A stretch of DNA of 64,000 nucleotides from Candidatus Thorarchaeota archaeon (lineage in GTDB: Archaea; Asgardarchaeota; Thorarchaeia; Thorarchaeales; Thorarchaeaceae): contig JBHLRS010000006.1 in assembly GCA_048882325.1 (NCBI GenBank), positions 32,001 through 96,000 of the forward strand. Direction: 5' to 3'. The stretch's first letter is position 1. Each line of letters starts with the position of its first letter. The notes below the pieces were generated by a model that was not told the origin of the DNA, did no database searches, and was given only the letters and a program-made list of their open reading frames with translations. A program made the translations under genes and the position numbers. Positions 1,644 to 33,618 of this stretch are shown here, one piece after another.

Positions 1644-2984
1644 GTGGATATGTTGACTCCAACCGATAGCCTTGATGAGTCTAGTCAGGGAGATTCACTT
1701 CAGACTTTGGAGTTTGTTGGTGATATTGACCCTCTTTTTGATATCCCCAATCAGGGGGAGATTCTCATTATCAGCAATGATCAGTCATATCTAACGCATG
1801 GAATTCACAAGTTTCCAGCCAAATTCTTTCCAGAATTACCTCGTTATTTAATTCGCAAGTATTCTTTGCCCGGCAATACAGTACTCGATCCAATGTGTGG
1901 TAGTGGGACGGTTGTCTTAGAGTCCCTTCTGAACGATCGGATTGGGATTGGAATCGATATTGACCCAATGGCACAGCTGATTACCAAAGTCAAGACTACA
2001 CCCATAGATCCTAAAGAACTGCTTCCGGCTGCACGAGGTTTAATTGCTCAGATAAATGAAATGAACGATGCTTCTGATTATCAACCTGAGATACCAGAGT
2101 TTCATTATCGTGATAGCTGGTTCCGGTCCTATGTTTTACTTGAATTGGCAATCATCCATGATTCCATTGACACCCTTACTTCGAAACAACAGAACGACTC
2201 CGACCGTGAGAACATTCGTGATTTCTTCCGAGTTGTACTCTCCTCCATCATCAGGGATGTGTCAAATGCTGATTCTCATTGTACTCGGACGGTAATCCGT
2301 AAGAAAGTAGTGAAGAAGATAGACCCCGGTGACACGCTAAGAAAGTTCTCTGAAACACTAACTAATCAGTGTGACTCTATGTCTGAGCTATTCCATATAT
2401 CGAATACACTGGGTATCAATGAAGTTCATCTCCCCATAAAGAACGCTTTTGATACTGGACTTGATTCTGACTCGATTGACCTCTCTGTTACATCTCCCCC
2501 ATACATAAACGCAGTAGATTATCCGCGAACACATCAGCTCGAGATGTACTGGCTTGGATTACTAGATGGTAGTCCTTTATCCCATGTCAAACGGAAATAC
2601 ATTGGGACCGAAACAGTCTACAAAAAAGAATATGCTACCCTTAGGACCTCAAGTTATGAATCCCTCGACCCTATTCTAGAGAAAATATACAACTCGGACC
2701 CAAGACGATCGTATATTGTCTTCAAGTTCTTTGAAGACATGAAGAAACAGCTTGCAGAAACATATCGTGTATTGAAACCTGGAGGTACTTATTGTTTAAC
2801 AATTGGGAGCAATTTGATTCGTGGAGTGGAAGTGCGTTCTGACCAAATTCTCTCTGAAATTGCAGTTACGGACATTGGATTTGAATTGGAAAAATCCTTC
2901 TTCTCAAAATTGATTCGACATTACATCAGAATTCCTCGTCCTGAACGAATGTTGGGTGAATGGGTACTAGTGTTGAGGAAATAA
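1644..2984 (+). CDS. Orphan DNA methyltransferase, N4-cytosine type (alpha motif order)
   Basis: THGIHKFPAKF, motif I LDPMCGSGT, then TRD, then motif IV VTSPPY, and RVLKPGG. The ATG at 1650 is a likely start. Confidence 0.85.
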   Translation: MDMLTPTDSLDESSQGDSLQTLEFVGDIDPLFDIPNQGEILIISNDQSYLTHGIHKFPAKFFPELPRYLIRKYSLPGNTVLDPMCGSGTVVLESLLNDRIGIGIDIDPMAQLITKVKTTPIDPKELLPAARGLIAQINEMNDASDYQPEIPEFHYRDSWFRSYVLLELAIIHDSIDTLTSKQQNDSDRENIRDFFRVVLSSIIRDVSNADSHCTRTVIRKKVVKKIDPGDTLRKFSETLTNQCDSMSELFHISNTLGINEVHLPIKNAFDTGLDSDSIDLSVTSPPYINAVDYPRTHQLEMYWLGLLDGSPLSHVKRKYIGTETVYKKEYATLRTSSYESLDPILEKIYNSDPRRSYIVFKFFEDMKKQLAETYRVLKPGGTYCLTIGSNLIRGVEVRSDQILSEIAVTDIGFELEKSFFSKLIRHYIRIPRPERMLGEWVLVLRK

Positions 2985-3019: not shown

Positions 3020-3730
3020 TCATTTCTTCCTTGATTTCAAATCCTCATCTATGCTTTTCAAGAGATCATCAACTAAAGCGCTAGGAAGATTCTTAGCTTG
3101 CTTCACAATATTATTCACTTCCTCCGGTGGGAGCCCTCTATTCTCAAGCTGTTTTCGAAGGTCCTCAATTTCAAAATCGGTAAGCTTGTCTTCAAACTCG
3201 GATTCCTGAATTGGTATCTCAAGTTTAGTATCATCGAGTGATTTTACAAATTCCTCTATCTTTTCCTTCGGGGCTGTTTCAGCCTCTTTCATGATTGCCT
3301 CAATTTCTATTTCTGGTACTTTCCGCCGAACCAACTCTGCTTCTAAATCAGCACACTCTTCTTCTGTTAAAGTCACAACTTTCTTTCTACGTTTCATTTT
3401 CTTCGGTTTTTCTGTTTTCTTGAAAAACTCAAGTGCAAGCTCCTTAGGAAGACTTCTTGCTTGTTCAACGATTGACTCGATTTCACGATCACTAGCTTTT
3501 CGCTTAATCAGCTCAGAACGAAGATTTTCAATTTCCTCTTCTGTGAGATGTTCAACCTTTTCTTCAACAGGTTTTGGTTTTTCTTTAGCCAGAATACTCT
3601 GAAGAAGCATCTGGACTACATCTTTTGGAAGTTCTCTGGCTTGTGTGACAAAGGACTCAATTTCATGCTCTGGAATTCCTCGTTTTTCAAGTTGTTCAGT
3701 CATTGTGTTCAATTCTAATTCTCTTAGCTG
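3020..3730 (-). repeat. Four ~45-aa cytoplasmic helical repeats, consensus L(T)xxEIExLRxxLxxRGxPxxEIExIVxQARxLPKxxxxxLLKS
   Basis: Four copies visible in the translation after the TM. One copy ends the 6202-aa paralog (LSDYELKEIRQQLVDAGIKGSELETIMEQARELPKELAEELLKSIL). Confidence 0.85.
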
Positions 3731-6700
3731 ATGTTCGATATCGAGTCCTTCTTCTTCTGGCTCAGAGATATCAGCATCTTCTTCAACTACAGCGTAAATG
3801 TCTGGTTTAGCTACTATAGCAGCTCCACCAATTCTCTTTCTCCTTTCTGCTACAACTTCTTCCATGACCTGTTCTACAGATTTGTTCTGTATACCTGCGA
3901 CTCTAATTGCTTCCTGACTAATTACCTCTCTTACGAAACTGGTTTGCTGACTCAACTTCATCTTTGATATCTCAAATTTGAAGTCATCAAGCTCTTGTTG
4001 AGTCATTTCAGTAAGTATAGCGAGGTCAATAATCAGTTCATCAATTTCAGGCACTTCTATTTTGACTGATTCTGCAGGAATTTGCGAAGCTTCTCTTTTA
4101 ATTCCAACTGGATCATGTAGTTCATTGAATAATTCTGCGACGAGGGATTGTCTTGATCGCACGCCCCTAGCTGGTTTAGGTACTCTACTTCTACGTAATT
4201 GTCTAACCTGACCACTAATTATCCTGATTATCTTTGGCACTCTTAGAATCCTTACCCATACAACACCGAATAGAATCAGGAAGATGGCAAAAGCACTACC
4301 GTAAGTCATTGCGTTCTGCAGAGCAAGATCTTCTTCAGATGGACTTACCGAAACTGAAATCATTACACTGGCTGTTTCATAGTATGTTTTATTGAAGTGA
4401 ATTGTTACTTCCGTGACACCAGCTCTTCTTTTAGCTAATACTCTAAACTGATAATATCCATCGCGACTTTCATCAGGACCTAGATATTCGACAGTGGCAA
4501 ATTGGGGTTCAGAGTTATCAACTATGATACGAGCCTCGGTAATTCCCTCTCCAGAATGACCTAGCCACGCATCGGAATAATAGATCCAAAATGTTGCGTT
4601 CATTCCCCAGTGAAGTGACAGTGCTGACGGTCCTTCCACCTGAAGACTAGTTTGAATCTTGATAATCGTGATCTCGAACACGAATACCGCGGTGGTGTGA
4701 TTTTCTAACATGAATTGGATGTTAAATAATATTGTCGCACCTAAGCCCCAATCAAGTGTGTTGAAAGCGAATGAATAATTACCATTTCCGTGATCGGACA
4801 AAATAAGTGGTTCTTCGTAGACTCTTGGTCCTGTATAGAACGAGTTGTTGGATATTGCGTCTGGAATCCCTCTTGCACCATAGGTGTCATTGTATAACAT
4901 GGTGACCGTAAGTGTATCTCCGTATGGTACTTGTAGTGTTGTCCAGGAATCTCCAATTCGATACAGTTCAGGGAGAAGAATCGAGATGTCCGTGGGGACT
5001 GATGCAATATGAATTCTAATCGTCAATTCTTCATCCTCATAGTTTGCCTTTCGGAACTCCACTGTGATCGTGTAAGTTCCCGGGTTTAGTTTTGATGTAT
5101 CAACTGGAATGCCATAGATTCCTTCACCAAGATATACAGCACTACCTGATCCTCCTGCCCAGGAAAAAGCGGAAAAGTCAGCCTGAATACCTTGTGCATG
5201 ATAACTATCATAGTAGGTGACATTGACAAAACCTGTCCCGCCCCAAACAAACTCATCAGTTCCTGGTGAAAGAATAGTTGCTTCTAGATTTCTCACATAT
5301 ATCGATGTAGAATTATCCGCCCTCTCGTAATCCTGATTGGGTGAATTGGCTGAGATGATGAATGTGTGAAGCGCGGCAATTCCTTGGCTTGTGTCGAAGT
5401 CATAGTAGTAATAACCAGGACCTCCAATTATGGGTCCATTCACTAATGTTCCATTTGTGCCGAGTTCAGGTGAGTTCCATGTAACATTCAGACCGTCTAA
5501 TCCTGTGGAGTACGGATGTGTTGCGTTAAGGGCTGGAGCTAGAACATAAACTCCAATTCTGACAATATCGGACCAGTACACAGATGTATATTCGTAGCTT
5601 AAAGTAGCATTATCGAGCCATACTACCATCTGTATCTTTGAAATTGCCATAATCAGAGTCGCGGATGCATTACCATAGTTGTATTTTGAAGCCCGTAGAC
5701 GAATCTGGTAACTTCCATATCCCGCATTTCCTGTAGGTATTTGAAGTCTGTAATGCCCCTGTTCACCTGATATCTCAGTCACTGTCAAATTGGTGTCATA
5801 CACCCAGCTTCCTACAAGGGTTGCCTCAGAAACATAAGTGCCGTCAAGGATGTCCTCTAGATAGACCTCAACCACAGCAGTAGCGCCATATGATACGGTG
5901 AAGACATAGCCTTCTTCAGGGATGATTTCCATTGGTCTTGGTAAAAGTCTGAAAACCAGCTGATAAGAAGCATCAATATAGTTTGGTGCACTACCTTCAA
6001 TTCTAACGATAATTGTGTCCGATATTACGCCCAAACTAGTATCGAGAATTGCTGTGTAGTTACCTGGCACACCAGTGGGTACAAATGAATCTATGTAGCC
6101 ATCCCAATCATATGTGATTGTCGCTATCGAAACAGTCTGATTTCTAAGTGTATCATTAATTGCTGCAAATATGGTGAGAGGCTCACCCCAGTATATATCG
6201 CTAGTGGCTCTTGGTCCACTCCAAGTGACAATCAGCTCGGATGGAACAGCAAGAAGGTTGATCTCTACATTCAGTGAAGAGATTGAATAGCGAAGCAGAT
6301 TTGCTTGCACAGATAAAATTTGAGAGCCATGACTCAAACTACCTGTCTGAAGAGTTAGATTATAACTACCATCTCCAAGATCAATGTATGACGACAAATC
6401 TCCCCATGTCAAGGTCAGTGAGGCTCCTGCAAGTGGGTTGTCGTCAGCATCATAATCAACGAGGTATATCATGGCTGATGTAGTATAGCCTGCATAGTTT
6501 GTAGGTGCAATAACTGCAGAGAGTCCTGCAACTCTCTTCCTTAATCCGAAAACTACAGATGTTTCTGCTATCTCGTATTGTGAGTGGTTGATTGTTACAA
6601 GTACAGATTGTAAACCAACAGTCAAGGAATCTACCATGCTCAATGTAATATTGTACTGTCCACTACCTAGTGCTAGAACTGACCAGGACGATGGTGCTAG

Positions 6701-9700
6701 TCCTGTTGATTCATAGATTAAAGAAATCTGCCCCTCTGCACCATTTATTGGCTGTCCATGATCCGTGTCCAAAAACTGAAGCACAAACGAAACGTCTTCA
6801 TAGAATGCTACAACTGAGGGTGATGGTAAGTCACTTGAAACAGATGTCTGAATTGCGCGAACTAATCCTTCTGCTTCTGGTGCAAAGGCAGTCATGTAGT
6901 ATGGAACTACTAAGGCGCTCCATTGAACTTCAATATCAAAACTGAAGGTTCCAAGGCTTCCTAATGAGGATGTGCTGACACGTATTGTATACTTCCCTGA
7001 ATCAACACCAGTTCCCATTTGGACCCAGTAATCCACTCCTTCAATGAGACCTGGAGCCTCAAAGCAATCAAAGACTATGATTGCACCTTCAATTGGATCC
7101 CCTGTCGACTGATCAGTGTACATCAGAGTGACGTTCATGAGATCCCCAAAAGGCGTTTCCTCAATTTGACCCAGCTCGATGTTTCCAAGTCTTCCTACTA
7201 TATCAACAAAGACTGAGGTCGCATCATCTTTGTAGTATGGAGCACCCGTAGTCCACTCAATCTGAATTGTTATGTTCCAATCGCTCACCAGGATTGCGCT
7301 TATGACAGTAGAATTGATTTTGAGTCTGAAAATCGAACCAATCTGCTGAATCACATACTCACCATATGCGAGAAGTGAAGTGTCACTGTATATCTTGACA
7401 TCACTAATAACAACTACAACACTTTCACCAGTTGATAAATCCACGAATGCAAAATCTAAGGTCATATTATCAAGGTACAATATTTGACCTGGTGGAAACA
7501 CTATCTCAACACTAGCAGATCTCTCAGTAACAGGGATATTGATATTTCGTTGAGCATCCTGGTAATGTGGAGGTCCTGCAGACCAATTGGCTACTACTGT
7601 TATTGTCTTTACTCCTGGAGGCCCGAGAGCAGATGTGTCCAATGAAAAAGCATAGAGACCGGGACTCGTTTCACTAATTTCATAGTCAACTGTGGGCTGA
7701 AGTAATGCTAATCCAAAATAGAGGTTAATTGTTCCACCAGTAATTCCTGATGATGATAGAATGTCCTTATACAGAATGGTGAAGTTTACGTAATCCTGAT
7801 AGTGCGTTTGAGAAGGTGACGAAATCAAGTCCAGACTTGTATCCCGTTCATGTATTTCGAATGGTACTAGTATCTCATTCCATTGGTAGAAGGGTGCTTC
7901 AAATTCGGAGCTGAAATTCAACCAAAGATGATAGGTTCGTCCTATCTCTATTACTTGATTAGAGGTTTCAACTGTGAGTAGGTAGTTCTGTTGTGATGGT
8001 CGCCAAGTACAAGTAAAGATCCAGTTGGATCCATTGAGTATCTCTAAGCTGGTCATGACACCTGTATCGTTTCCTATCGCAAAAAGGGAATCAAGGTCCT
8101 GGTAGTACAGAACTACACTGAATGAGCTTCCATATGGGATGGATCCAACAGGCTCAGATGTCAATAGAGTGTCTCGAAAACTGACCTCAAGGGTTTTTGT
8201 AGCACTTCTGGCTTGATAGTAGAACTGAACAGACGAAGCTTCCACTCTAAGTGAATAAAGTCCTGGCTTACCAAAGTATGATACATTCAGATTAACTAAG
8301 TATTCTCCAGACCCTAGATCTGTAATCTGAACATGACTAGAGGGAACAACTGTCACCCCGAAATATATGTCAATCGTGGCTCCTATTACCATCTTGGAGG
8401 CTGAACCTGCAATATCTACAAATGTCACAGTGAAGGTTGCATTATTACCAAATGGAGTTAGAGGGGGTGTAGGATATGTCAGAAGGGTTTGACGTTCTAT
8501 CAGTGTTATATCTATGATTCGTCCAGTGACGTTTGAATAGAATGGCAATCCACTCCAGGTAAGATTTAGGAATAGTTGTCTATCTCCTAGTGGGGCACCA
8601 AGCTGACTCGTGTTGAATGAAACTATGTATAATTCCTCAAGAGCATTGTAACTCAATGTGAAATCAGGCACATCTAGTAACACCGTCATGGCAGCTGGAT
8701 TATAGTCTATAGGACTTGAGAGTCCTCCCGTTGTATCTTCATAGGTGAAGGAGAATGTAGCATTCTCACCGTAGGGTACACTGGTTGGTGGTATGATTGA
8801 TAGTGATGCAGTCCTTGGAAGTACTCTCACTGAAATCAAGTCAGTCCTGTTTGTATAGAATGGAACCACATTGGCAGACCAGTTGATGAGTACCTTCATT
8901 GAAAAGATACCCGTTCCACTAATAATCGAATTGTTGAATCCGATTGAGTATTCCCCTTTCCTATTGACGCTGTCTATTTCCCAGATGTCCACTTGTGACA
9001 GATCCACAGTGACACCAACAAACTCAACACTAATGAAAACGTTGAATGTGTCGTTCGTGATGCCGCCTGTAGATGGGCTTGAATATAGGAAAGTGTAGGT
9101 CATGTAGTCTAGGCATGGAGAAGGAAGAGCTGCTTCAATCAGTGTGAGTTCTGTATCTGCACCAACTATTTCAACTGTAATGGATAGGAACCTGTTCTCA
9201 TACTTTTGGATGCTTCCAGTCCAATTGAAGTAGACTGTGAGTTGTTGAACTCCAATACCTCCAAACTGCAAGGCAACAATTGAAATGGTATAGTATCCAT
9301 CTCCTCTTGCCGTGTCATTATCCCAGGTAGTTGCTAATTGGTGGGTTGCATTCCAGACAGTACACTGAACATCAGAAGATACAATTCCCTGCAAGTGATC
9401 CCGATCCCCGTAATAAACTGAGATATTGATTGTTCCATCTGAAGTTGTGTCATCTACTGGTGAGAGCAGCCTGAGCTCGGTCCTAATGGAGCGAATCACA
9501 ACAGTGACATTGAATGATGCTGATTCATATTCTGCTCCGAATGAAAAATCAAAGACAAGCAGGTACAACGCTAAAGCATCGGTATCAAAGGTGTTGATGG
9601 TGACACTGTAACGGTTGCCCACCCACACAATGTCATAATGAACTGGAGTCCAGTTACAGCTATGACTCACTGTTAAGATTGGTAGGTCATGGTCCATGTC

Positions 9701-12700
9701 AATATAATCCACATAGAATGTCTGTGTGTCTCCTACTGGGATTTCTAGAGCTCCGACAGTAGCAGTTGCATATGTTCTGATTTGTCTGACCTGAATGTCT
9801 ATCGATATTATCTTGTCTTCATAGTTTGGTGCTGAAGCGGTGAAGCTCACAGTATAGACACCAATGCCCCATGTGTCGGTTTCAATCGTCACTCGATACC
9901 TGCCACTGGTTATCAGTTCTTGACCAAGCTTCGCAGCCCCAATCACGGTGAAAGTAGCTGTGTCAATTCCCTGTCCTCTATCTATATCAACAAACTCTAA
10001 GGTAACAACTGCATTCGTGCTGTAAGATATCGTCAAAAGTGGAAAGTCGGGTGAGCTTAAATCACAACGTGCTTGAGTGAACTGAAAACTAATGATGGGC
10101 GTCTGAACGTTGGAGTAGTTCTCTGAAACTCCAAATGAAATGAATATCCGTATTCCATATGTTCCTCCTGGGAAGTAGGACTGGTCTAAAGTTATGACAT
10201 ATGTCCCTGCACTTTGAGGTGAAAACGTCTTGATGTTATAGAGTGTACCATTCTTGTCCCTGACAGTGAAATGGCTCTGAAGAAGACCATTTACAGGCAT
10301 GTTATCAAAAGCTGAACTTGACTCATTCACAGTCACATAAGTGATTATCTCAAAATCATCCCCGACTGGGAAGACACCTATATTATCCCACAAAATCATT
10401 GTAGTCAATTTTTTGATGTTCAGAAGTATCGCAGTGGTTCCATCATAGTAATACCTAGGAGTTGTGGTTGTGAAAACTGTGAGGTCAATTGTATAGGTGC
10501 CTAATTCCCAATCCTGGGTTTCAATAAGGAATTGAAGAGATCCGTAACTTGCAGAACCTCCGGTCCATTCTGCGAGAACACTTGATAGGTTTCCGGTTAT
10601 TGCTGTATTTCCTGCATCAAGATCTAGCAACGATAGAGTAACTGTGACATTGGATCCCAAAGGTATAGTTCCATCATAACTGGCCACAACGGTAGTTCTA
10701 TGTGGTCTTATCGCCACTGCAACGGTAACCTCGCCCGCTTTATAGTTCGTGCCAGCTATTGTGAAATTGAACAAATAGATGTCAATACTGTACGAGTCAA
10801 CATCAATTTCGATGGAGTACCTCCCATCGAGTAAGTCTGTATACTGGAATATTCCATCACTACTCAACACACCTCCAGTTATTCCGATACTGCTATGATC
10901 AACATCTTGCCACTCAAGTATAATGGTTGCATTCTCACCCCAAGGTGTACTAACTGGATTGACCTCAACCTGAACCAAATCAGTCTCGATTTTTCTGTAT
11001 TGAACGTTCGCCTCCACAGAGCTATCGATTACGTACATTTGCGAAGGATTTGCATTTATGACAAAACAATGTGTTCCAAAATTCAATCCTGTTGAATCAA
11101 TGTTAACGATATACGTGCCATTGTTATAATCTGTGACACCATTTATTGTACCATTAGAGGTTATGGTGGCTCCTGCATAATATACTCCCGTTATTGCATC
11201 TTGGAGATTCACCCGGATAAGGAAGTCGTCTCCATATGGTGCTGAAGGTGGTGTTTCATAAGTCAACACCGTATTGTGAGATAGCTGCAAATCAAAGAAT
11301 GTTGCTGCATCAACGAGGAGTGGGTGGCTAGAAACAATGTCGAGTCTCCAATTTCCTGGCTGACCTAGATCCGAGGTGTTGAGAGTCTTTCCATAAATGC
11401 CGTTGCCATAATCTTCGAACTGGATTTGTGTCTCGATTCCCAAGACACTCCAGTTCATCATAACCGTGGAACCAACTACATTTTGTGCAGTTTCAATATC
11501 GGTCAGTTGAACCTCGACCTCTAGAAGTTCTCCTGCTGTCCGTACTGAAATTCCATCTCCAATTGCGTCATCTGGTGACAAGAGGTCAAGAGATGAAGCA
11601 TGTTCTACAATGAATAGTCTACTGTATCTTCCAACACGTTCTGGACTCAAGTCCGCCGTGTCGTTGAAGTCGACATGAACCTCCCAAAATCCATTTGGCC
11701 AAGAACCAGTCACGCTGATGCCTGTCCATTCGAACTGACCACTTCCATCTTGGCTCAAGTCATCTGAGCTGTAAAAGACCTGACCGCTTGGGTCTATCAA
11801 TTGAAGTTGCATGGCCGACCCAGGAATCACTGTTGCTGTCCCCCTAAACTTTGCAAGGTCTCCTGTCTGAAGTGTTACAGTATTTCCGTACGCACCAGCA
11901 TTTGCTCCACACTCTAGAAATGACGCCTCATTGTTTGAAGTGAATGTAAATGACCAAACACCTGGGACATCGAGGACTGACGATGGCACAGTGATCTGCA
12001 CACCTGTTGTTGAGATATCCAAGAGTCTGTTCCGGCCCATTGCATCAATGACCTTTGTCAGCGTCCAATCAACCGGATTCGTCAAAATCATCCTCAAATC
12101 ACTAACACCTTGTGGTGGACTCGCTAGGACATTTGCTGTCCATGTTACTCCCGTTCCGTTAGCCACAAAGAATGATGTTCCAGATACCATGTTCTCATCC
12201 AATGTTGAGCTCTGAGTTGTCACATTGAGTTTCATTCTTGGAAGGATACCCACAACCGATGAGGCATCTGTAGTGAAGGACAAAGTAGCGCTTTGTCCAT
12301 ATAGTACACTCTGTTCAGAACCAACACTTAGGAAGCTAGATGGGTCGTACTGGTTTTCATATTCAGTTTGAATCCAGCTAGCAGATTTGTAGCCCATCAT
12401 TGTGCGAAACTCGTCTATTCCTCCAAGGTGAACTTGCCCGCCTCCATATGAACCTAGCATGAAAATATTCGAAGCGTCTCTCAACCTATCTCCCAACCCT
12501 ATGCTTGAATCTGACTTGGAATCCTGCAGTACACCATCTGCAAAACTATAGGCTCGTAATGTTCCATCACCAGTACTTTCATACTTGTACACAACAAAGT
12601 TCCAAGTCTGACGTTTCACCAAGACATTGAGGTAGGTGGCGCCTCCAATATCAAAATGGATATCAGGTTGGAACGAAGCATAGTCGTCTGGCCAGCCCGT

Positions 12701-21000: not shown

Positions 21001-24000
21001 AGTCTGATAATTCGGACCTTTAGAGAAGGTGAACATTACCAAGTAACTACCGAGACCATCTGTGTCCGTACTTGGTAATTCGATTCTATACTGGTCACCT
21101 GTCCAACTAATACTCAAAGAATACGTCCAGTTATGGTTGATAGTTGCTCCGAGGATAGGTGCGTCATGTGTGATATCCCAATAGTCTGCGTAAAAGACTG
21201 CAGTGTCTCCAACTGGCAAATCTATGATAGAAACTGATGATCTAGCGTAGGCATATGCAATTTGGACAAGAATTTGAAAAGTCAGTGTTTTTGCTTGGTA
21301 TCCGTTTGCATCTGCTGTTAGATTAACCTCATGAGTACCGAGGTCCCATCCCTGTACAATGATCAGAACCTCATACACTCCGTTTCCGGTGTGTCGCCAG
21401 ACAATCGATGCCCCCTCTGAAGTTATTGTACCGATAGTTATGTTCTGTACATGATCAATGTCAACATACGACAATGTGACGGTGACATTTGTGTCAAAAC
21501 TTGTTGTCACTGTAGGATAGTCTGGTGATGATAGATATGTAAGAATCGGACGGTATGAAAACGTAACCTCTGGTGTGCTGCTGTCCGTATAGTTTTCTGC
21601 TGGCAGGAAATCAACAAAGACCTTTATCTTGTATTGCCCTTCAAGAAATCTTGTACTATCAATTGTGATTTGATAGACCCCTTCTCCGAGGTTTATGAAA
21701 CTCTCGAAGGTGTAAGGGTTCCCTGTTTCGTTAGTAGCACTAAAGTAAGACTGGTCAAGTCCCGTAATTGGCGTACCATCTATTGGATTTCCCGGCTCAC
21801 TGACGTTCACGTATACAAACATCACAAAGTCATTTCCATTTGGAAATGGCTCAAGCGGATCCCAACTCAGGTATACATTCAGTTTTCGAATCTCAAGTTG
21901 GATTTCGAGGTAAGAATCCATATAGAATCTCGGAGCTCCAATTGCATTGATTGTCACATTGATTGTATACGACCCAATGGCCCAACCACTTGTATCCAAC
22001 CAGAAACTGAACGCAGGGAAACTATCGCTTCCTGTGCCCCAATCCAGATTCACCTGACTCAGATTTCCACCACCAATTGATACTGAGTAAAGGTCCAAAT
22101 CCAGCCAAGAAACATCAAAGTACGCATCAGTGCCCACTGGTATTGTTGAGTTATAGTTTATACTTGGTGTTGTTCTATGGGCTAGAATTGTGATACTTAT
22201 AGTTGACATTGATGATTGGTAATTCTGTTTTGAGAATGTCAAATTGAAGTAGTAGGTCCCAGGAGTAAAGGAACTGACATCGATTGTTAGGCTGTAGTAG
22301 CCGCCTCCATCGTCATTAAGTTGAGTCTGAACAAATGGGGATATTGATATTGAGCCTCCATCAACTCCAATTCCCGCATGGTCAACATCAGACCAGTATA
22401 TGCTAGTATTAGCCTGATGTCCCCATGGCGACTCAACAGCATCAGGGTTAAGAGGGGTTACTTCAGTAGCAATGCCTCGATAATTGAATTGAACATCAAT
22501 ATTACTACTCAGTAGGTATGAAGTACTTGGGGATGTCGTGAACCTAAATGTATGTTCTCCAACGGAGAAACCTGTACTATCAATTGTTACTAGATATGTT
22601 CCATTTCCATAATCTGTTGGTAAACCTAGTATTGTCGCATTACAAGAAATAGTGGCACCTGTCAATGGGGTATTATCGAATTTGTCTCTAAGTGTCAGTT
22701 TAACCTCAAAATTACCTCCATATGGTGTGTCCTTAGGCGGTTCGTACGTGAGGAAGGTTCTATGAGAGAGATCCAAATAGAAGAAGTCTGTTGCATTTGT
22801 ATAGAATGGATGTGATGACTCAAGATCTAACCTCCATCGCCCATAGCTTCCCAGATCAGATGTATTGAGTGTCGTCCCATATCTGCCATCTCCATAGTCA
22901 TTGAGCTGGACATTAGTTGGTACTCCACTAACACTCCAGTTCATCGAAACTTCTGCTCCACTTAACATTGCAGTAGTCAATGTATCTTTCAGTTCAAACT
23001 CAACATAGAGCTGTTCTCCAATGAGTTTGGTCGAAATTCCATCTGCTATCGCATCTCCAGGTGCTATGAGACCTAATGAAGTCCCACGTTTCACAATGAA
23101 ACTTCTAGAAAACGTGCCCACCCTGTAATTTACATCAGAACTGCTATCACTATATCGGGCTGATGCATGCCAGACTCCTGCGGGAGCAGAGGCATCCAGA
23201 TTAATAGGGGCAGATTCCGAATATCCACTAGTTTCTTCCGAACTGACAGAATAGAAAACACTTGGATTATTCTGGTTCTCGAACTCAGTATTAATCCACG
23301 CACTAGATCGTGCAATATCGGAAATTCGCACTTCATCGATCTGCCCTATCCATGGGAAGGTCCATGCTTTTCCCTCTGGCTGGTCTGCATGCCCAATTCG
23401 GAATGAATCCGGAAGGGCTGACAAGATATTTGTTGTCATCTCCATTGTTGCTGCGTCTTGGCTGCCATCAATATAGAATTTCACAAGGGAGCCATCATAT
23501 GTGGCAACTACATGGTGCCACCCATTGGGCGCAATAGTCTGACTAGTACCCAAATCATAGGTGCCACCAGTAGGTCTAGGACCCAGATTAATCCTCATGT
23601 TTTGACTATTCTGAGACATGGTAAATCGATATCCACTGTACCACCCTTTGTGATTGAAGGGACCCATATTTGGATGTGTAGCGGATGGATACTGCATCCA
23701 AAGCTGAAGCGTAATCTGGTTGCCCGTAATATCAAGACTAGTGGCATTCCCACAGTCGATAAAGTGATCTGTGAAGTCTTGTCCGTAACCAATTCGTGTT
23801 GCCACCCTAGATGGTACATAACTGACATTTCCATCACCACCTTGCCCATGGTTATTGTAGAGGCTACTGTCTGCATATTCATCTACAAGTCCTGCACCAA
23901 TCTCTCCAAGATGCCAGACTCCTACATAGTTCGAATCCCAGACCGGTCCTGATGCATAAACTATAGGAGCCAATGGATTGTCGTAGTACATACTGATTAT

Positions 24001-27000
24001 TGTGTCACTTGAGCAAGAGAGCAATGGAACTTTTACCCATGCTACGAGATGCGCGTGAGTCAAGTTGTACGCTTGGTCGAAGAGTTCTATCTCATGTGAA
24101 AGTGTTTCTTCACCAATCGCGAATGCGATATCTCTACCATCAGGGCGGACATCTGTGCGGAGGTCTGTGTCGTATATGTCTATTAGAACTGGGAAGTTGG
24201 CAAGATCCTCTGCCACATTCTCATGACTGACTGTCAAGGTTTTCCTGTGATAGTATGGTAGTGTGAATCGATCTCCCTGATTTATAGTAGCTCCCGTATA
24301 CCAGGCTGAGCCTGATGGGTCTGTCAGCTCAAGAGCGATTGTTGACCCTGTAATCCACGAACTCCTTATTCTGAACTGGATGTCTTCACCCAATGTGAAC
24401 TGGTCGGTGGAAGAATAAGGTCCTCCACTTGGTCCAATTTGCATGTCAAGAATATGGTTTCTGTCTAGGAATTTGATTTGCCACATGCCATATTCATCAA
24501 TCGCTGTTGAAGCAACCGTTAGTCTACCATCAAAACATGTCCAATCCGATGCGTATGCTTTTTCAACACCTGAAGGGCTTGTAACAGAAAGTGGCCACCA
24601 ATCACCATCTGGATAGGAAATCTCGAATGAAATATCAACTATTTCAGACGGCGGGGAAATCAACACACCCGTAGTCCAAACTGGTACGCTTCCATTAGCA
24701 ATTGAGAAGGTTGTTCCTAGGCTGAAGTCATCTGCGTAGGTATAAAACGAAGTTTGGACTTCTAGTGTCAATTCAGCTCCAATTGTAACAGCAGACGCAG
24801 AGCTTGTTGTGAAAAGGTATTCTATACCGCTGATTTGTACCTCTGATCCAATAGAAAGGAAGGAGCTTGGATCGTTTTGATTGTTGTATTCCGTGATTAC
24901 CCAACCTGGAGATTGGACCGCAGTAGACACTCGAATTTCATCAAATTTCCCTAGAAAACGACTGGCGGTATCAAGTTGATTTCCTCCCCAAAGCCAATCA
25001 CCAAGACTTGCTAACTGTGTCCACTCTGTTGGTACATTTTCTGCGGCAAGAATCATTGGTGCTCCATCTAGGTAAATGATGACACTCTTTGTAGAATAGT
25101 CCAGTGTGAGCACAAGATGATGCCATACATTGTTTGTGAATGGGTCAGTGGCAAGGTTATAATCAATGCTGTTGCCACCCCAAGGATAGAAGAAGTGGTC
25201 ACCATCAGGTTGAACAGCCCATTCAAAGCCATCATCTTGTAGAAGTGTTGGTGGAGGAGCGGGATTCAATATGAACCGGTCACTGGTTGTCATAACTCGC
25301 TGATATCCTCCATCAGCGGAATCTACCCAATTGATCCATAATGAAAGAGTACCTGCGTATTTTACCGAATCCAGACTGGAACTTTCAGATACATTGATCA
25401 TGTCATCGACTCCATCCAACGCAAATCCACTTCCAATTTGCCCTGGAACGAGAGCTGAACCACTCATGGACCCCAAAGTTGCGCCATCATTATTGTATGG
25501 GCTACTATCATAAACTGTTCCTGTTGGAGTTTCCTCCAGATGCCACACACCTGCATAATTACCCCAGACCGCACTCGGATTTTCTTGAGCTGTCAAATCT
25601 GGGTTGCCATAATACATTGTGATTGTTGTGTCAACAGACGAGGAAAGGTCTGTTTTGACCCAGACCATTAGATGTGCATGTGTTGCATTATAGGTCTGGT
25701 CGAAGTAAGTAATCTCGTGTGGACACCAGCTTTGTCCGTTCCTGAACATGATGTCATCTCCATCAGATTGAACATCATTTCTAAGATCTGTGTCAAAGAT
25801 GTCAATGAGAACCGGGAAGTCAGTAAGGTCTGTAGCGACTTTTGCATGATCAACCACTAAATCCTTTTTGTATTGAAAATCAGTAGCTCGAGCTCTTGAT
25901 TGATATCCAACCCGGAGAGTTGTTTCCTCTCCTATTGAGTAGAAGCTTGACGGGTCATTTTGGTTTCTGTACTCTGTTGTAATCCAAGAGGCTGAGTGAG
26001 CAATACTTGAGATGCGGATTTCATCCATGGTGCCATTGACCATTCTGTCTAAATCAATTGTACCAGCTATGTTATCCACTGAGAGGGTGTTTGCACCTAC
26101 TGTTTCATCCTGTTGTATCCAAACACCATTAATATAGAGATCTCCAAAATCCCCTGACCTTACAAAAACAATATGCTGCCATGCATCCGCTACAACTGAA
26201 CTTGATGGGAAATCGAAATACTCAGCATCTGTAGCTGTTTCAACTCGTATCCTACCATTATAGTAAGAAATCCTATTAAGATAGGCATCTGCACCCATGA
26301 AATTGACTTCGCTATTGGGTCCCGGTGGAAATCCCACAGGATATACCCAAAATGAATAGGTTCCAGTGGACTGCGTATTAGAACTCTGCAAAGCAATGAA
26401 ATCATCTGTGCCGTCGAAATCATATCCATATCCCATGCGACCAGTAATTCCTTGAGTGGGTCCTCCCATTAAAGTACCATCTGGTCCACCAGAAACTGAA
26501 TCTCTCGAAACACCGGAGGTTTCTCCGAGATGCCAAACCCCCCAATAATTATCATTCCAGACACCATTCTGATTCTCCTGATTTGTTGCTGAGGGATTTC
26601 CGTAGAACATAGTAACAATCGTGTCAACTGTAGACGAGAGATTGGTCTTGACCCACGCAACAAGATGAGCATGCGTCGAGTTGTAGTTCTGATCAAAGAG
26701 CTCAATTTCATGTGGTAGGACTGTAGTACCAAGTTTGAAGATAATGTCATCACCATCTATCTGGACTTTTGCCCTCAAATCAGTGTCAAATAAATCAACA
26801 AGTAATGGGAAGTCTGTCAGGTCTGAGTCGACCTTCGTGTGGTCAACAGTTAAGTCCTTCTTGTAATCAAATTCGATAAGCTGCATTGATACTTCTGTAC
26901 CTACCGAATAGAAACCGGATGGATCGTTCTGATTTAGATACTCTGTCGCAATCCAGTCTGGGGAAAGAGAAACATTGAGGATTCTAAATTCTGAGATTGC

Positions 27001-30000
27001 TCCGGAGCCCCACATGTTTCCACCACTTAAATCGGACAGAATAGCTAATTGATTCCAGGTTAGGTGTGGATTTGCGTTATCTGCACTATTATCTTCCGCA
27101 TCCAATGTGCCATTCAAATAATGATATGCCCTTACCGCAGACATTGATCTTACCCATGCAAATTGGAACCATGTATCAGCTTCCCATGAACTCTTGCTTC
27201 CAGTACAGGTTTCGTCAATATCTGACGTGACCTCCATATGTGTCACGACCAAACCTGAACTCGCGGCAAATCTCATCAAAGGGTAGTCATTTGTTAGACT
27301 GTTTCCTCTGAAGAAGTGCATATCACTTCCTGGTGGGAAGACACTATCAAGGGCAAACCACGATTGAAATGTGAAATCATTTACAGGTCCTGAAATCCCG
27401 TTGATGCTAAATCTATCATCTAATCCATCCACAGCAATCGCAGTTCCTAGTTCACCGTCATATACCCTCTGGTCCGAACCAAATCCAGTTGCTGTCAGGT
27501 CATACCCATTAATTGTACTGTCTTTTATCAAGGAAGATGATGGATCTTGATTCATATGCCAAACCGCAACATAATTACTATTCCATACATCAGATGGATT
27601 CTCTTGATTACTTAAACCGGGATTTCCATAATACATCGAGATTGTTGTATCTACAGTGGAAGAAAGGTCAGTCTTGACCCAGGCGACAAGATGAGCATGC
27701 GTCGAGTTGTACGTCTGATTAAAGAGCTCTAGTTCGTGAGGCAATATTGTGTTGCCAATTGTGAAGATGATATCATCACCGTCAGATTGAGTCTTTGTCT
27801 GTAGATCACTATCAAAGATGTCAACAAGTAGTGGAAAGTCAACTAAATCTGCCGCAACTTTTGTATGATCAATGCTTATTTCTTTCTTGTAGTTGAATAC
27901 AAGGTCTTGAGATATTTCGGGACTGATTATACTTGTAGGTTCCGGACTCACAAAAGGTCTGAGAAACGCGTCATCTGCAATAACCGTGTTGGGTTCTGTC
28001 TGAGGTGCAGCCCAGTAAAAAACCGTACAGAACCTATCTATGCCCTCTGTTCCAAGATTTACTCCAGTTACTTCAATCTCAAGATTTCCGTCGAGCCATA
28101 ATCTAGCTTCACCGACAGTATCAGAGATCTTAGCCTGCATATCTAGTGTATGCCAAGAACCCGTGGAAATCGTACTTGTCGTTCCATAACCATATGCCTC
28201 ATCAACAACATCATTCCACATATACAGAGTCATGTCATCTCTAATTGTTACACTAAGTTGGTTTTGCCACACCGCGGAGGTGTCAACATATTGCATTATT
28301 GTGACATGATCGCTGGTGGAGAATCCTGCTGGTAGGTAGAAATGTACTCTTGCAAACAGATTCGATTTGTCACTGAAATCCTTCCAGACCATGGCTTGAG
28401 CGGCTGCCACATCGTCAACATCTCCCCTTACTGCATAGGTTCCGGAATGAACTGGAATCAGTGGTGTATTCAACACAATCAGTGTGTCACCAGTGTCTGT
28501 ATATGAACCATCCCAAGCGCTAAGATCCCCGCTCTCAAAACCATCATAGAATTGGAACACGTTCGTGTAGTCATTTGGTGGATTAGTAACAGTGGGATTT
28601 CCGTAGTATATGAAGTACTGATCATCGGAGGAGTATGCAGGAATATCCGTTTGAATTCTGAACCATATCTTTGCGGTCGCGGAATTCCAAGAAGAGTCAA
28701 AATCTAATATCCTGTCCAATTCAGTCAAACTTAGACCATTCCAGTACATTATCCGTAGATCATCACCATCAATTTGCGATTTCCCTGCAGCGACTAATGA
28801 TGCATGATCAATAGTCACTGAAGTCGTATATCCAGCAGGGACAAGTTCGGATCCTGAAGTAATGGTGACTTGCCTGCTGTATTCATATGTCACAGCAGTC
28901 GTGGTTTCAATTTCAACTGCATAGAATGAACTTGGGTCATTCTGGTTGTTAAATTCAGTAACAATCCATCCTAGATTTCTATAAGAGTTTGAAACCCGAA
29001 CCTCATCAATTCGGCCATCCCACTCTTGAATGAAACCAACTGACCCTGGATTATTGGCAATGTGAATTACTGATGTGCCCGTTTGAGTTGAGCCGGTGTA
29101 AGCTGCATTTCCACGCTCAACTCCATCAACATACAAGCGCAGTTCGCCAGTATCTGCATTTGCCACACCCGCAACATGATGCCACTGCCCATCATTCACC
29201 CAGCTTAGTGATGTTGTTACACTCTGAGTGTCGTCAACATAAAATGCGAGAGTCGAACTGTCCAATTTCCCTAGCCAATAGTTTCTGTGACCCACATCTC
29301 CCCATTTGGCGACTATCGCATCTGAAGAACCATCAATATTGTTTGTCCTTACCCACGCTTCTACCAGCATGTCTGAGGGAAGGACGAGTGAAGAGGAGTG
29401 AGGCGCTTCAATTCTGTCGTTGGTTGCCTCTCCGTAGAACTCAGAGCACCCGTCTATTTTCCCTGTCTGAAGAGTAGGTTCAGAGCCAAGTGGGTACCCT
29501 ATACCATCGTTTCCATTTGCTGTGCTATCGTAGACAGTCCCGGCTGGGTCTTCACTGAGATGCCACACAGCTGCAAAGGAAGTATCCCAGACACCATTGG
29601 GGTTTTCCTGACTCTCTGAACTGGAATCTCCATAGTACATCGATAGGACAGTATCAGTTGAAGCAGAGAGGTCAGCTCTCACCCAAGCGATAAGGTGTCC
29701 ATGCGAGGAATTGTATGATTGGTCAAACAGCTCAATCTCGTGCGGGAGTATCCATCCATCCTTCACAAACACAATGTCATCACCATCTGCTTGTACATCA
29801 AATCGAAGGTCTGCATCATAAAGATCGATAAGGACCGGAAATCCATAGAGGTCTGAGGCAACCTTGGTATGGTCGATGATGATGTCTTTCTTGTACATGA
29901 ATTCAAGTGGAACTTTCTTTGGAATTATGACCTCTTGCTCAACTCCCAGCGAATAGAAGCTGGACGGATCAAATTGGTTATTGTACTCTGTGAGAATCCA

Positions 30001-33000
30001 TGCAGGTGACCGTGCAACATACGATAATCGAAACTCATCGAGAGATCCATTAACGGGGGCTGAATCTCTGGATATCTGCAGGTCTCGGATGCTGGTGATG
30101 TCATCAACCATGCTTACGTCAACAGGAGTAGCAATCAAATTTCCGTCCATATAATATCTCATTAGATTATCAGATCTATCAACTGTCACAGCATAATAGA
30201 TCCATGCGTTGAGTGTAAAATCAACATAGGTGGATGATATTCTATCAACCCCATCGTTTACCAAGGCTTCGGTCTTTGTGGCGGCAGTATTTGTCGCAAG
30301 GGAATACCCTGGATCTGTCAATCCAGTAGATCCTTTGTATATTATATCTTGATAGTACCCTGTGCCACCGTCAAAGAATACCCAAATGCTGAAGGTCAAG
30401 TCGTTTGCTCCGAAATCAAGATCCCTATCCGCAGGATTTCCAAAATTAATGGAATCATCGATTCCATCCACATCATTTGCATTACCTATTTTACCAGATG
30501 CTCCTTGGGTGACACCTCCAAGAGGAATCCCATCATTATCATGTGCAGTTGAGTCGAGGGCATTACCACTAGTATCCCCAAGATGCCACACCCCAGCATA
30601 CGTGTAGCTCCATACCCCAACAGGATTTTCCTGACTCCCCATCGACGGATTGCTATAAAACATTGACAATACAGTATCAGTCGTGGATGAAAGGTCCATC
30701 CTCACCCAAGCTACCAAGTGAGCATGCGTAGAGTTGTATTGCTGGTCGAACAACTCTATTTCATGTGGAAGACTCCTGCCATTTGATGTGAACATTATGT
30801 CATCACCATCTGGTTGGACGTCTTTATGTAAGTCTGAGTCATAGATGTCAATCAATACTGGGAACCCTGTAAGATCAGATGCCACTTTATTATGGTCAAT
30901 AGTGATATCTTTCATATATCGAAAATTGACACCCTCTTCGCCTACTGTCAAAAATAATCCTGGATTTCTTTGATTATTGTATTGAGTTCTAATCCAGGCA
31001 TCTGATCTAGCAACAGTCGAAACCCGTACTTCATCAACAATACCATCAAAATAAGATGTTCCACCTGGATTATCGGACCTGCGACCAATTCTAAATGGAC
31101 GATTTGGATCATTCATAGATGCTGGTGTACCGGTTGTTATTTGGTCTACCAGCTCGCCATTCAAATAGAATCTCGCATATAATGAGGGTTGGAACACTCC
31201 CACGACATGGTACCATTGGCCAGTTTCAACACGTTCATAGCCAATGCTTGTGGTAGATACACCATCTGGACTAAATCTGAACATCACCCAACCTGCAGGA
31301 CTTATGGATGAATCAACGTCAAAACTGAGATCCCACCCACGGAAGTTGTTCTCAGCTGACTTGACAACAAGATAGTCATTATCAATAAAGTCCGCCTTGA
31401 ACCAAGATTCAACTGTGATTGCTCCAGTTATCTGCAGCTCTGCTGGATTTCCAAAATCAATGTAGTCGTTCACGCCCTCAAGATCAATAGCATTTCCAAA
31501 TTGACCGCTAACACTGTCACTAGATGTCATTGTCCCATAGGTTGAACCATCAAGACCTAGTAAAGTGCTATCAACGATTTGAGGTTGGTGCGGTAGATAA
31601 TCAGCTGATGTGGAATCCCATTGTGGTTGTGCAGGGTCATCATTCAGATGCCAAACAGCAGAATAGCCTGAGTCCCAGACATTCAGTGGATCTTCTTGAC
31701 TACCAAGGTCCTCGTCGCCATACACCATTACTAGGGTCGTGTCCTCAATAGATGACAAATACGGGACATTAACCCAGCAAACCAGATGTGCATGAGTTCC
31801 ATTTCCTTTCTTATCAAACAACTCAAGCTCATGAGGAATAATCTGGTCATTGTAAAGGAATGCGATGTCATCACCATCTGGCTGAACATCGATGTGTAGG
31901 TCCTCATCCCATATATCCACCAAGACTGGAAAGTTCTGAAGGTCTGAAACAACCCTAGTGTGGTCTATCACTAGGTTTTTGTTATATCGAAAGCTGGGAA
32001 TGGTATCACTCGGGTCTGGTGAGGTGAAGTCCACAAAGAGTCGCGCAAGATCTGCTTGTAAATACCCGCTTGAGCCCTTTATGTTGTAGTATTCGTAATC
32101 TGACGTGGAGTACGCGTAATCAATCATTATACAGATGTAGTTTCCGCTCTGCCAGCCGGGTCTCGAAACTACTTCCTGGATGAGAGCTGACACGTCGGGC
32201 GAGTCATATCTTCCGTTAGCGAGCCACGTTGTGGGACGCCAATAGATACTAGTGTTGACCCAATCATATCTGTCTTGGAGAAGAGGATATCCTGTTGTGA
32301 ATGCAGTCACATCATCCTCATCTGCGATATAGATCCTCACTCCAGGATTACCAGTTGCGTCGAAGGCGGCCTCCACTTGCAAAATAGCAGATGAGATTGT
32401 TGATCCTTGTGGCACATGTAATGGAAATTGAAGTCCGACGCTATATGGGTCTGCACTCGTCCAGTCGCCCGGTGTAAGTAAATCATTGCCAACATCTATG
32501 TAGCCATTGTCATCGTACCCATTCAGATCCACTCCACCAGCGCCCCAATTTGACGTATCACCACTATAACAGTCTCTGTTGCTCCCATCAGGAACATATG
32601 GTGAAACACTTCCCTGAGTTGAACCGGTTATTATAGCTCCGTTTGCTCGTAGGTCAATCTCCTCAGGAAACGGACGTACAAGAAATCTCAAATCAATTTC
32701 ATCAATGAATATTTCATGGACAGCAGCACCTGGAGGGTTTCCAATCATATCTGTTCCAAGACCAATGTCGAAAAGTAATGCGTTTTGAATTTCTATCGAC
32801 TGAAAATAGGATGAAGGAATTGTAGCCTTGGCTTCTAGCCATGTGTCTATGGGGGTGACGCTTTCAAACACATGGAACTTTGTAACATAGTCTTCCAACC
32901 TAGTAAAGACAAATATCATGTCATCCAAATTGGAAACACTCGAAACATAGTAACGGAATGTGATTTCCGCAGAGTAAACCTCCCTCCATGGAGCAGAGAT

Positions 33001-33618: not shown

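What the first reader, a model, noticed from the sequence alone, without database searches (positions are those of the whole stretch)
3020..33618. 30.6-kb operon of two giant paralogous receptor/adhesin-like membrane proteins with reciprocal repeat counts
Seen: 6202-aa and 3997-aa proteins, colinear end to end, coupled by an ATGA overlap (15010-15013). The larger has 8 extracellular DUF2341+LamG-like modules and 1 cytoplasmic repeat. The smaller has 1 extracellular module and 4 cytoplasmic repeats. Their stalks align segment by segment. Inference: a heterodimeric surface appendage or receptor, with one chain specialised for outside glycan or partner binding and the other for inside scaffolding. 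This is functionally reminiscent of eukaryotic adhesion receptors, without implying homology.
Basis: partly seen in the sequence, partly recalled or inferred. Interest (0 to 1): 0.82.

Follow-up and report, generated by a model that had tools for sequence, protein, structure and literature searches.

The report
Paired giant Thorarchaeal surface adhesion proteins
Two neighbouring genes of an Asgard archaeon (Thorarchaeota) encode matching giant membrane-anchored surface proteins, with swappable sugar-binding-type tips outside the cell and a conserved undescribed domain inside, and they travel with a leucine-rich-repeat gene and a dead-looking small GTPase, so they are a candidate two-chain adhesion receptor wired to the cell interior.

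Summary
In detail: ORFs of 6202 and 3997 aa, an ATGA overlap, 8 versus 1 DUF2341+LamG modules and 1 versus 4 cytoplasmic three-helix repeats. Both stalks have 23 Ig-like units in register (39% identity). The pair recurs in 33 of 86 Thorarchaeal family genomes (4-5 genera). All 16 intact junctions overlap (-4 or -1 nt). An LRR gene and a divergent P-loop-defective GTPase come with it. 'Reciprocal counts' is not a rule: the large chain carries 5-9 modules, while the small chain always has 1 module and 4 repeats. The family has two other loci per genome with one repeat per chain, and solitary members in many genera. Each tandem pair arose by its own duplication (a single alpha/beta ancestor is rejected, p=3e-43). 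Head modules are shuffled and exchanged between genera while stalks follow descent. Best reading: a co-translated, probably co-assembled glycan-binding adhesin/receptor pair with variable tips, docked inside to an LRR/pseudo-GTPase adaptor. Co-assembly and docking are inferences. It is not an integrin. No paper found; this scan had noted pieces on other genomes.

The parts
15010..33618 (-). Gene A, giant type I membrane protein (6202 aa from GTG; probably 6193 aa from the ATG at 33591)
3020..15013 (-). Gene B, paralogous giant type I membrane protein, 3997 aa
15010..15026 (-). ATGA stop/start overlap, with a GGAGGTG ribosome-binding motif inside the last codons of A; overlap conserved in 16 of 16 intact orthologous junctions
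33529..33591 (-). A: N-terminal signal peptide or signal anchor (hydrophobic stretch)
   Evidence: hydropathy only
32014..33276 (-). A: two head domains homologous to the CBM jelly roll and the CBM96-like domain of B
   Evidence: by homology to the B model
24829..31992 (-). A: DUF2341+LamG modules 1-7 (module 4 at 27904-28887 is divergent); variable and shuffled between genomes
23230..24255 (-). A: module 8, inserted into an Ig-like domain
15817..23100 (-). A: stalk of 23 Ig-like units; the ectodomain is rich in N-glycosylation sequons (82 versus 59 expected)
15298..15786 (-). A: TM helix (GxxxG) and conserved ~140-aa helical cytoplasmic core
15037..15171 (-). A: single cytoplasmic three-helix repeat
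13379..14605 (-). B: CBM-type jelly roll (residues ~137-337; Z 13.4 to a hyaluronan-binding CBM) and CBM96-like domain (~357-545; Z 15.6 to a chondroitin-sulfate CBM, 13.5 to an alginate CBM)
12305..13345 (-). B: single DUF2341+LamG/pentraxin-fold module
4343..11623 (-). B: stalk of 23 Ig-like units in register with A (ectodomain sequons 66 versus 33 expected); the Ig domain at 11594-11932 resembles a Haloferax S-layer domain (Z 12.8, rmsd 2.2, 102 aligned)
3824..4309 (-). B: TM helix and conserved cytoplasmic core
3050..3727 (-). B: four three-helix repeats (3593-3727, 3419-3547, 3236-3370, 3050-3184) on acidic linkers
33767..34390 (-). Cytoplasmic LRR protein gene, directly upstream of A in 4 genera
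34582..35889 (+). Ras-like pseudo-GTPase 1 (unknown N-terminal domain; P-loop GEDGVGINS without Lys; G3 replaced by AWTF; NKTD kept), divergent from the LRR gene
36013..37260 (+). Ras-like pseudo-GTPase 2, tandem paralogue (64% identical)

Best explanation
A and B are two chains of a Thorarchaeal surface adhesin/receptor, made in matched amounts from one translationally coupled transcript. Each is exported, N-glycosylated and held by one TM helix. A stalk of 23 Ig-like domains (roughly 80-95 nm if extended; inferred) lifts a head of carbohydrate-binding-fold domains above the cell coat. The two equal stalks most likely lie side by side in one assembly (dimer or small oligomer). A supplies a variable, exchangeable array of 5-9 LamG lectin-type modules that sets binding range and avidity for polysaccharides or partner-cell glycans. 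B has a fixed small head and supplies four extra cytoplasmic docking repeats. The conserved cytoplasmic core and repeats recruit partners, most plausibly the co-inherited LRR protein and pseudo-GTPase, which act as non-catalytic adaptors to the cell interior. Shown: anatomy, folds, coupling, register, cassette conservation, module shuffling. Inferred: ligand, co-assembly (about 0.45), LRR/pseudo-GTPase docking (about 0.4), signalling as opposed to mere anchoring.
For: Folds: CBM jelly roll, CBM96-like and LamG/pentraxin domains in the head, and an S-layer-type Ig domain. Sequons are enriched outside, with only one in each cytoplasmic tail. Coupling: -4/-1 overlap in 16 of 16 intact locus-1 junctions, against about 12% of close co-oriented neighbours in this genome. 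Register: stalks are 2449-2463 aa in both chains in every orthologue with a complete stalk, with no indel of 20 aa or more between partners. Family stalks elsewhere range from 1782 to 3904 aa, and non-partners differ by whole domains. The locus-3 pair shows the same coupling and 17/17 units, whereas the non-overlapping locus-2 pairs are out of register. Pairs duplicate as units (G257, G153). No B was seen with intact upstream DNA and no A; the apparent solo in G245 has A's last codons after a scaffold gap. Cassette: 23 of 23 LRR orthologues and 28 of 29 full-length pseudo-GTPases occur in the 33 genomes with A/B, in the same arrangement in 4 genera. Module exchange: single modules are 75-80% identical in genomes whose stalks are only 57-58% identical, including a second genus, and they sit at different positions in the array. 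B residues ~400-900 are 75-83% identical (nt) to another genus, against 52-75% within the genus.
Against: Solitary family members of 4,700-5,100 aa occupy locus 2 in well-assembled genomes of several genera, so the family does not need a linked partner. Locus-2 pairs differ by 1 to 15 stalk units. Partners are sisters at each locus, so equal stalks could simply be inherited from the duplication. Cassette co-occurrence is confounded by physical linkage and kinship. Divergent LRR + pseudo-GTPase pairs exist without adjacent giants in G265 and G213. Both chains carry heads and cores, so the division of labour is only partial.
Confidence: 0.5

Rival explanations
1. A and B are independent adhesins (monomers or homo-oligomers) from a tandem duplication. 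They stay linked and co-expressed for dosage and repertoire, like ordinary tandem adhesin arrays, and the repeat asymmetry is lineage history.
For: Solo members are common at locus 2. Partners are sisters at every locus, and duplications recur (G025, G077). A distant Asgard family has loose arrays of 2-4 paralogues with 150-600-nt gaps. Module counts vary independently of repeat counts.
Against: The overlap and ribosome-binding motif are kept in all locus-1 junctions and nearly all locus-3 junctions, despite 32-41% identity between partners. Stalk length is frozen exactly where genes overlap and free where they do not. Pairs duplicate whole.
Confidence: 0.27
2. The pair are structural cell-coat proteins, stalks of an irregular non-crystalline surface layer. 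The cytoplasmic core simply anchors them to a scaffold, and the LRR/GTPase neighbours are hitch-hikers.
For: An Ig domain resembles the Haloferax S-layer protein. Heavy predicted glycosylation. The family is nearly universal in the family, 74 of 76 genomes. Cultured Asgards have irregular coats and tower-like appendages (10.1101/2025.07.22.663070; PMC9834061).
Against: Locus 1 is patchy (33 of 86 genomes) and its head modules are swapped between genera, which fits selection on binding specificity. The LRR-pseudoGTPase arrangement is kept in different genomic contexts.
Confidence: 0.13
3. The pair is a polysaccharide-capture scaffold for feeding. It tethers sediment or biofilm polysaccharide (alginate- or GAG-like) near the cell, possibly with lyase activity in module 4, rather than mediating cell-cell adhesion.
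For: The best structural matches of the head are CBMs from polysaccharide lyases. Module 4 matches Pfam Polysacc_lyase at E 3.8e-12.
Against: No transporter or hydrolase gene among the neighbours scanned. By eye, module 4 lacks the RxELR, QIH and YFKxG motifs I recall for PL7 lyases (own knowledge). The elaborate cytoplasmic tail would be unexplained.
Confidence: 0.1

Closest known systems
Giant archaeal Laminin_G_3 and adhesin-like proteins (Amaral & Devos, PMC11573180; Nerearchaeum 5416-aa adhesin-like protein, 10.1101/2025.07.22.663070)
   Same: Signal sequence, LamG modules and/or long Ig/fibronectin-like stalk, membrane span, over 5000 aa; function not understood.
   Different: The passages read mention no conserved cytoplasmic domain, no coupled in-register paralogue pair, no LRR/pseudo-GTPase cassette and no module exchange. 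The full cytoplasmic domain is essentially Thorarchaeal, with weaker relatives in other Asgard families.
Integrin alpha/beta heterodimers (functional analogy only)
   Same: Two large single-pass chains, ligand-binding heads on Ig-like legs, cytoplasmic tails as docking sites (own knowledge).
   Different: Integrin alpha and beta are not homologous to each other, whereas A and B are paralogues. The B head model is all beta-sandwich CBM/LamG. Tails here are 240-400 aa and folded. Pairs arose repeatedly by tandem duplication.
Haloarchaeal S-layer glycoprotein (7ptp)
   Same: Ig-like domain fold (Z 12.8, rmsd 2.2, 102 aligned) and N-glycosylation sequons.
   Different: 23 units instead of about 6, lectin-type heads, and a long folded cytoplasmic tail instead of a short archaeosortase-type end (own knowledge).
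Roco proteins (LRR-Roc-COR) and eukaryotic pseudo-GTPase adaptors
   Same: An LRR gene next to a Ras/Roc-like domain (Pfam Ras and Roc hits).
   Different: Separate, divergently transcribed genes, no COR hit, and the P-loop Lys and DxxG are lost.

Membership tests
Giant archaeal LamG adhesin-like surface proteins | N-terminal signal, Laminin_G_3 domain(s), repeated Ig-like domains, membrane anchor | tested here: met
Giant archaeal LamG adhesin-like surface proteins | Surface display and adhesion or glycan binding | not testable with these tools
   fold likeness only
Integrins | Heterodimer of two non-homologous chains | tested here: not met
   A and B are paralogues, 35-39% identical over head and stalk
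Integrins | FG-GAP beta-propeller and vWA/beta-I head domains | tested here: inconclusive
   The head domains were assigned to CBM, CBM96-like, DUF2341, LamG and Ig folds; stalk units were not folded one by one
Integrins | One conserved alpha lineage and one beta lineage across pairs | tested here: not met
   AU test rejects upstream genes as one clade, p=3.2e-43
Haloarchaeal S-layer glycoproteins | Csg-type Ig domains | tested here: met
   Z 12.8 to 7ptp for one domain
Haloarchaeal S-layer glycoproteins | Short C-terminal PGF-CTERM anchor without a cytoplasmic domain | tested here: not met
   237- and 403-aa cytoplasmic tails with folded helical units
Haloarchaeal S-layer glycoproteins | Forms a 2D lattice | not testable with these tools
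   needs cryo-ET
Roco proteins (neighbouring LRR + GTPase) | LRR, Roc and COR in one chain | tested here: not met
   separate, divergent ORFs
Active Ras-superfamily GTPases (neighbours) | G1 GxxxxGK[S/T] and G3 DxxG | tested here: not met
   In the window copies and the six close orthologues G1 has I/V at the Lys position (divergent G265 and G213 copies have Lys) and G3 DxxG is replaced; NKxD is kept
PL7-type polysaccharide lyase (module 4 of A) | Catalytic RxELR/QIH/YFKxG motifs | tested here: inconclusive
   Pfam Polysacc_lyase hit; motifs not seen by eye, motif list from memory

The most novel reading that the evidence does not exclude
Thorarchaeota independently evolved a heterodimeric adhesion receptor, made repeatedly by tandem duplication of a homo-oligomeric adhesin. 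One chain carries an exchangeable lectin array, and the other carries a multivalent cytoplasmic docking tail for a dedicated LRR protein and Rab-like pseudo-GTPase. That would be an outside-in adhesion-signalling module analogous, not homologous, to integrin complexes.
Probability: 0.28. Interest if true: 0.9.

Novelty: new variant of a known kind. Interest (0 to 1): 0.72.

Why it matters
Cultured Asgard archaea crawl and adhere with actin-filled protrusions and carry unidentified surface densities, but the papers read here name no molecule that links an outside ligand to the inside (PMC13716822, PMC9834061). This family is a concrete candidate. It is nearly universal in Thorarchaeota, has weaker relatives in other Asgard families, and has a conserved cytoplasmic domain with no family assignment. 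One locus comes with its own LRR and pseudo-GTPase. The small cytoplasmic parts (about 140-aa core, 46-aa repeat, 207-aa LRR, 420-aa pseudo-GTPase) can be expressed and tested now, without a Thorarchaeal culture. The exchange of lectin modules between genera also points to an adhesion repertoire under diversifying pressure in sediments.

Tried and rejected
(1) Co-folding A with B (last Ig unit + TM + core, each as an alignment) gave 'no answer', score 0.01 against a mark of 0.32. The tool states this is no evidence either way. (2) Fold searches with the cytoplasmic model (pLDDT 78) gave no match: Foldseek none at E<=0.001, VIA best Z 5.8, Atlas TM<=0.2. ESM Atlas feature searches were blank for the tail and for the pseudo-GTPase N-domain. 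Pfam gave no consistent family. None of this shows a new fold. (3) No RNA holder was listed, so expression is untested. (4) One ancient alpha/beta operon duplicated three times: rejected by AU test. (5) Recent gene conversion between A and B: rejected, best nucleotide matches 65-77% over short stretches. (6) Assembly artefact or collapsed repeats: rejected (and orthologues). (7) A solo B in G245: rejected, A's end lies after a scaffold gap. (8) Foldseek hits to clostridial neurotoxin binding domains reflect only the shared LamG fold (10-16% identity); no toxin relationship is claimed. (9) A profile comparison of core versus repeat gave only a weak 21-column match (probability 43%), so a fifth hidden repeat is unproven. 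(10) Literature searches for Asgard+DUF2341 and Asgard+pseudoGTPase found nothing, and broader searches found no paper on this family. The library lacks most subscription papers. (11) The sigma-70 promoter scan was uninformative for an archaeon. (12) The careful 63-row tree did not finish; the quick tree and a careful 20-row tree were used.

Full report
Observation. The two ORFs are as described: A at 15010..33618 (-, 6202 aa) and B at 3020..15013 (-, 3997 aa), overlapping by ATGA. Single contigs from four public runs of two studies span the junction with 1-6 differences. Each protein has an N-terminal hydrophobic stretch and one TM helix near the C-terminus. A probably starts at the ATG at 33591, behind an AGGAG motif (6193 aa), as several orthologues do. 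Profiles built from the proteins find 7 similar modules in A plus a divergent one (residues 1578-1905), and 1 in B. They find 1 cytoplasmic repeat in A and 4 in B. The modules are 37-47% identical to one another and the repeats 31-48%, so both expansions are old. NCBI names homologues as Candidatus Thorarchaeota hypothetical proteins.

Anatomy. An AlphaFold2 model of B residues 78-1233 (mean pLDDT 81) resolves five kinds of domain. First comes a CBM-type jelly roll (Z 13.4 to a hyaluronan-binding module, 12.8 to an alginate CBM). Next is a CBM96-like domain (Z 15.6 to a chondroitin-sulfate CBM, 13.5 to an alginate CBM), then DUF2341, then a LamG/pentraxin domain (Z 11-15). An Ig domain resembles the Haloferax S-layer protein (Z 12.8, rmsd 2.2). 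A sequence profile independently matches pentraxins and an S-layer-domain protein over the LamG part. A shares this head at 35% identity, with modules 2-7 inserted after module 1 and module 8 inserted into the Ig domain. Both stalks have 23 units of about 105 aa and align at 39% with an offset of 2373-2377 over 2,600 residues. N-glycosylation sequons are enriched outside (82 versus 59 expected; 66 versus 33), and there is one in each tail. The tail model (pLDDT 78) shows the TM continuing as a basic juxtamembrane helix, a helical core, and four three-helix units on acidic linkers. The core has 14 invariant residues across 38 paralogues and orthologues.

The family. The TM+core profile hits 74 of 76 genomes of the family with 1-9 copies. 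It hits other Asgard families weakly, and only 144 representatives in 1.8 billion proteins. The window's genome has exactly six full members, in three tandem pairs (contigs C6, C19, C16). Locus 3 (about 2,600 + 2,600 aa, no LamG module, one repeat each) is found across the family. Locus 2 holds a loose pair in some genera but a single 4,700-5,100-aa gene in others, on long contigs (G100, G147, G158, G195, G222, G265, G052). Locus 1, the finding, is present in 33 of 86 family genomes.

Reciprocal counts. At locus 1 the asymmetry is conserved. All 23 B chains examined have 4 repeats and at most 1 module, and A chains have 1 repeat. But A carries 5, 6, 7, 8 or 9 modules in different genomes while B does not change, and 86 other family members have one repeat. 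The counts are therefore a fixed asymmetry with one variable side, not a trade-off.

Origin of the pairs. In three trees the partners of each locus group together. Holding all upstream genes together is rejected (AU p=3.2e-43; A1+A3 against B1+B3, p=2e-47). The root is not independently known, but this test does not depend on it. Further sister pairs occur in G025 and G077. Pairs thus arose by separate tandem duplications (or early locus-wide homogenisation), unlike the alpha and beta lineages of integrins.

Evidence that locus-1 partners work together. All 16 intact junctions overlap by -4 or -1 nt, usually with a GGAGG motif in A's last codons. About 12% of close co-oriented neighbours in this genome can overlap that way (rough gene calls). 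Locus 3 behaves the same, whereas locus-2 pairs are 122-200 nt (once 1,754 nt) apart. Stalk length follows this split: 2449-2463 aa in both chains at locus 1 and 1782-1819 aa at locus 3, with no indel of 20 aa or more between partners. At locus 2 it runs from 2258 to 3904 aa, with partners 1-15 units apart. Where a locus was duplicated, the pair was duplicated whole (G257, G153). The six genomes with B but no A evidence and the three with the reverse are 62-91% complete and mostly fragmented, and one of the B contigs is probably misbinned. Kin are not independent and equal stalks can be inherited, so this is indirect support for co-assembly.

A larger cassette. Upstream of A lie a co-oriented LRR gene (33767-34390) and two divergent Ras-like genes (34582-37260). 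Their P-loop lacks the lysine and their DxxG is replaced, while NKxD is kept; the same holds in six close orthologues. The order pseudo-GTPase (divergent), LRR, A, B is found in four genera and in different flanking contexts. All 23 LRR orthologues and 28 of 29 full-length pseudo-GTPases lie in the 33 genomes with A/B. G153 lacks the giants and keeps only an N-domain remnant, while G265 and G213 have divergent LRR+GTPase pairs without adjacent giants. Linkage alone can produce such co-occurrence, so a physical link to the tails is an inference.

Variable tips. Modules of A move between positions and genomes. Module 6 here is 71% identical to module 2 of G013 and 75% to module 3 of G236. Module 5 is 75-77% identical to module 8 of G236 and G257, whose stalks are only 57-58% identical. 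B residues about 400-900 are 75-83% identical at DNA level to a different genus, against 52-75% within the genus, whereas the stalk shows the opposite order (52-65% versus 65-83%). In the sediment runs, extra depth and variant contigs pile up over B's head (12.3-14.3 kb) and A's module 8, as if a co-occurring population shared only these parts; this rests on contigs and is a hint. The pattern fits recombination of binding modules on a conserved chassis, as expected for adhesins under selection for ligand range.

Mechanism. I commit to a co-translated two-chain adhesin/receptor. Its equal stalks project glycan-binding heads some 80-95 nm (23 units at 3.5-4 nm, inferred). A provides a variable multivalent lectin array and B multivalent cytoplasmic docking, with the LRR protein and pseudo-GTPase as likely adaptors. 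My odds: glycan-binding surface adhesin 0.8, partners acting together 0.7, physical co-assembly 0.45, adaptor docking 0.4, whole account 0.5. Rivals are independent tandem adhesins (0.27), structural coat proteins (0.13) and a polysaccharide-capture scaffold (0.1).

Relation to known things. Giant LamG-bearing archaeal proteins of unknown function are on record (PMC11573180), as are giant adhesin-like proteins of a Lokiarchaeon (10.1101/2025.07.22.663070). A and B belong to that broad kind. They fail membership tests for integrins, S-layer glycoproteins and Roco proteins. I found no paper on this family, its cytoplasmic domain, its pairing or its cassette. Earlier unverified notes of this scan saw the tail, the 1-versus-4 repeats and the pseudo-GTPase/LRR linkage on other genomes; I re-tested those claims here. 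Verdict: real, conserved and undescribed as far as I could search; a new variant of giant archaeal adhesins with receptor-like features; interest 0.72.

Noticed in passing
G000:C19 (L057:1-16683) and G000:C16 (L058:1456-15692): Two further tandem pairs of the same family in this genome. The C16 pair (locus 3, next to a probable tyrosyl-tRNA synthetase gene, identified by eye) is overlap-coupled, has 17/17 stalk units and no LamG module, and is found across the family; a ~700-aa co-oriented gene precedes it in many genomes.
   Followed up: partly
L029/L027 (G010:C248, C53), L037/L040 (G015): At locus 2 a further paralogue ('X', over 4,279 aa) appears to lie head-to-head (divergent) with another family member instead of in tandem; inferred from separate contigs.
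   Followed up: partly
L081-L088 (G141, G077, G035, G092; another Asgard family): Arrays of 2-4 large single-pass proteins (1,400-4,500 aa) with a distant version of the cytoplasmic core but no hit to the three-helix repeat; an 862-aa relative occurs in a 1.4-Mb genome (L090).
   Followed up: partly
window 1644-2984 (+): A DNA-methylase-like gene (N6_N4_Mtase) converges on B's end in most genus-g1 orthologues but not in other genera.
   Followed up: partly
L119 (G257:C8 ~88300), L107, L122, L132, L127: Short (130-215 aa) proteins made only of the pseudo-GTPase N-terminal domain sit near the cassette in genus g25; a distant version of the domain occurs in a ~430-530-aa protein in nearly all family genomes (own genome C2:69980).
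   Followed up: partly
window 12300-14300 and 23000-23700: Public sediment runs show 2-4-fold extra depth and ~90%-identical variant contigs mainly over these head modules, as if another population shared them.
   Followed up: partly
L026 (G009:C17 18212-18359) and G003:C44: Family genes split into two frames (a locus-2 gene in G009, a B gene in G003): assembly errors or broken copies.
   Followed up: no
L139 (G213:C124): This B fragment and its neighbour look nearly identical to those of G017 in another genus: possible misbinned contig.
   Followed up: no
window 14858-14926 (-): B has a 30-residue basic stretch before its hydrophobic signal and a Cys at the end of it in several genus-g1 orthologues (FCSP); it may be an uncleaved anchor or be lipidated.
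   Followed up: no
   Followed up: no
own genome, other contigs: 37 ORFs of 1,200 aa or more, many with N- and C-terminal hydrophobic helices, that do not carry this cytoplasmic core (e.g. C21 4830 aa, C27 2980 aa, C11 2635 aa).
   Followed up: no
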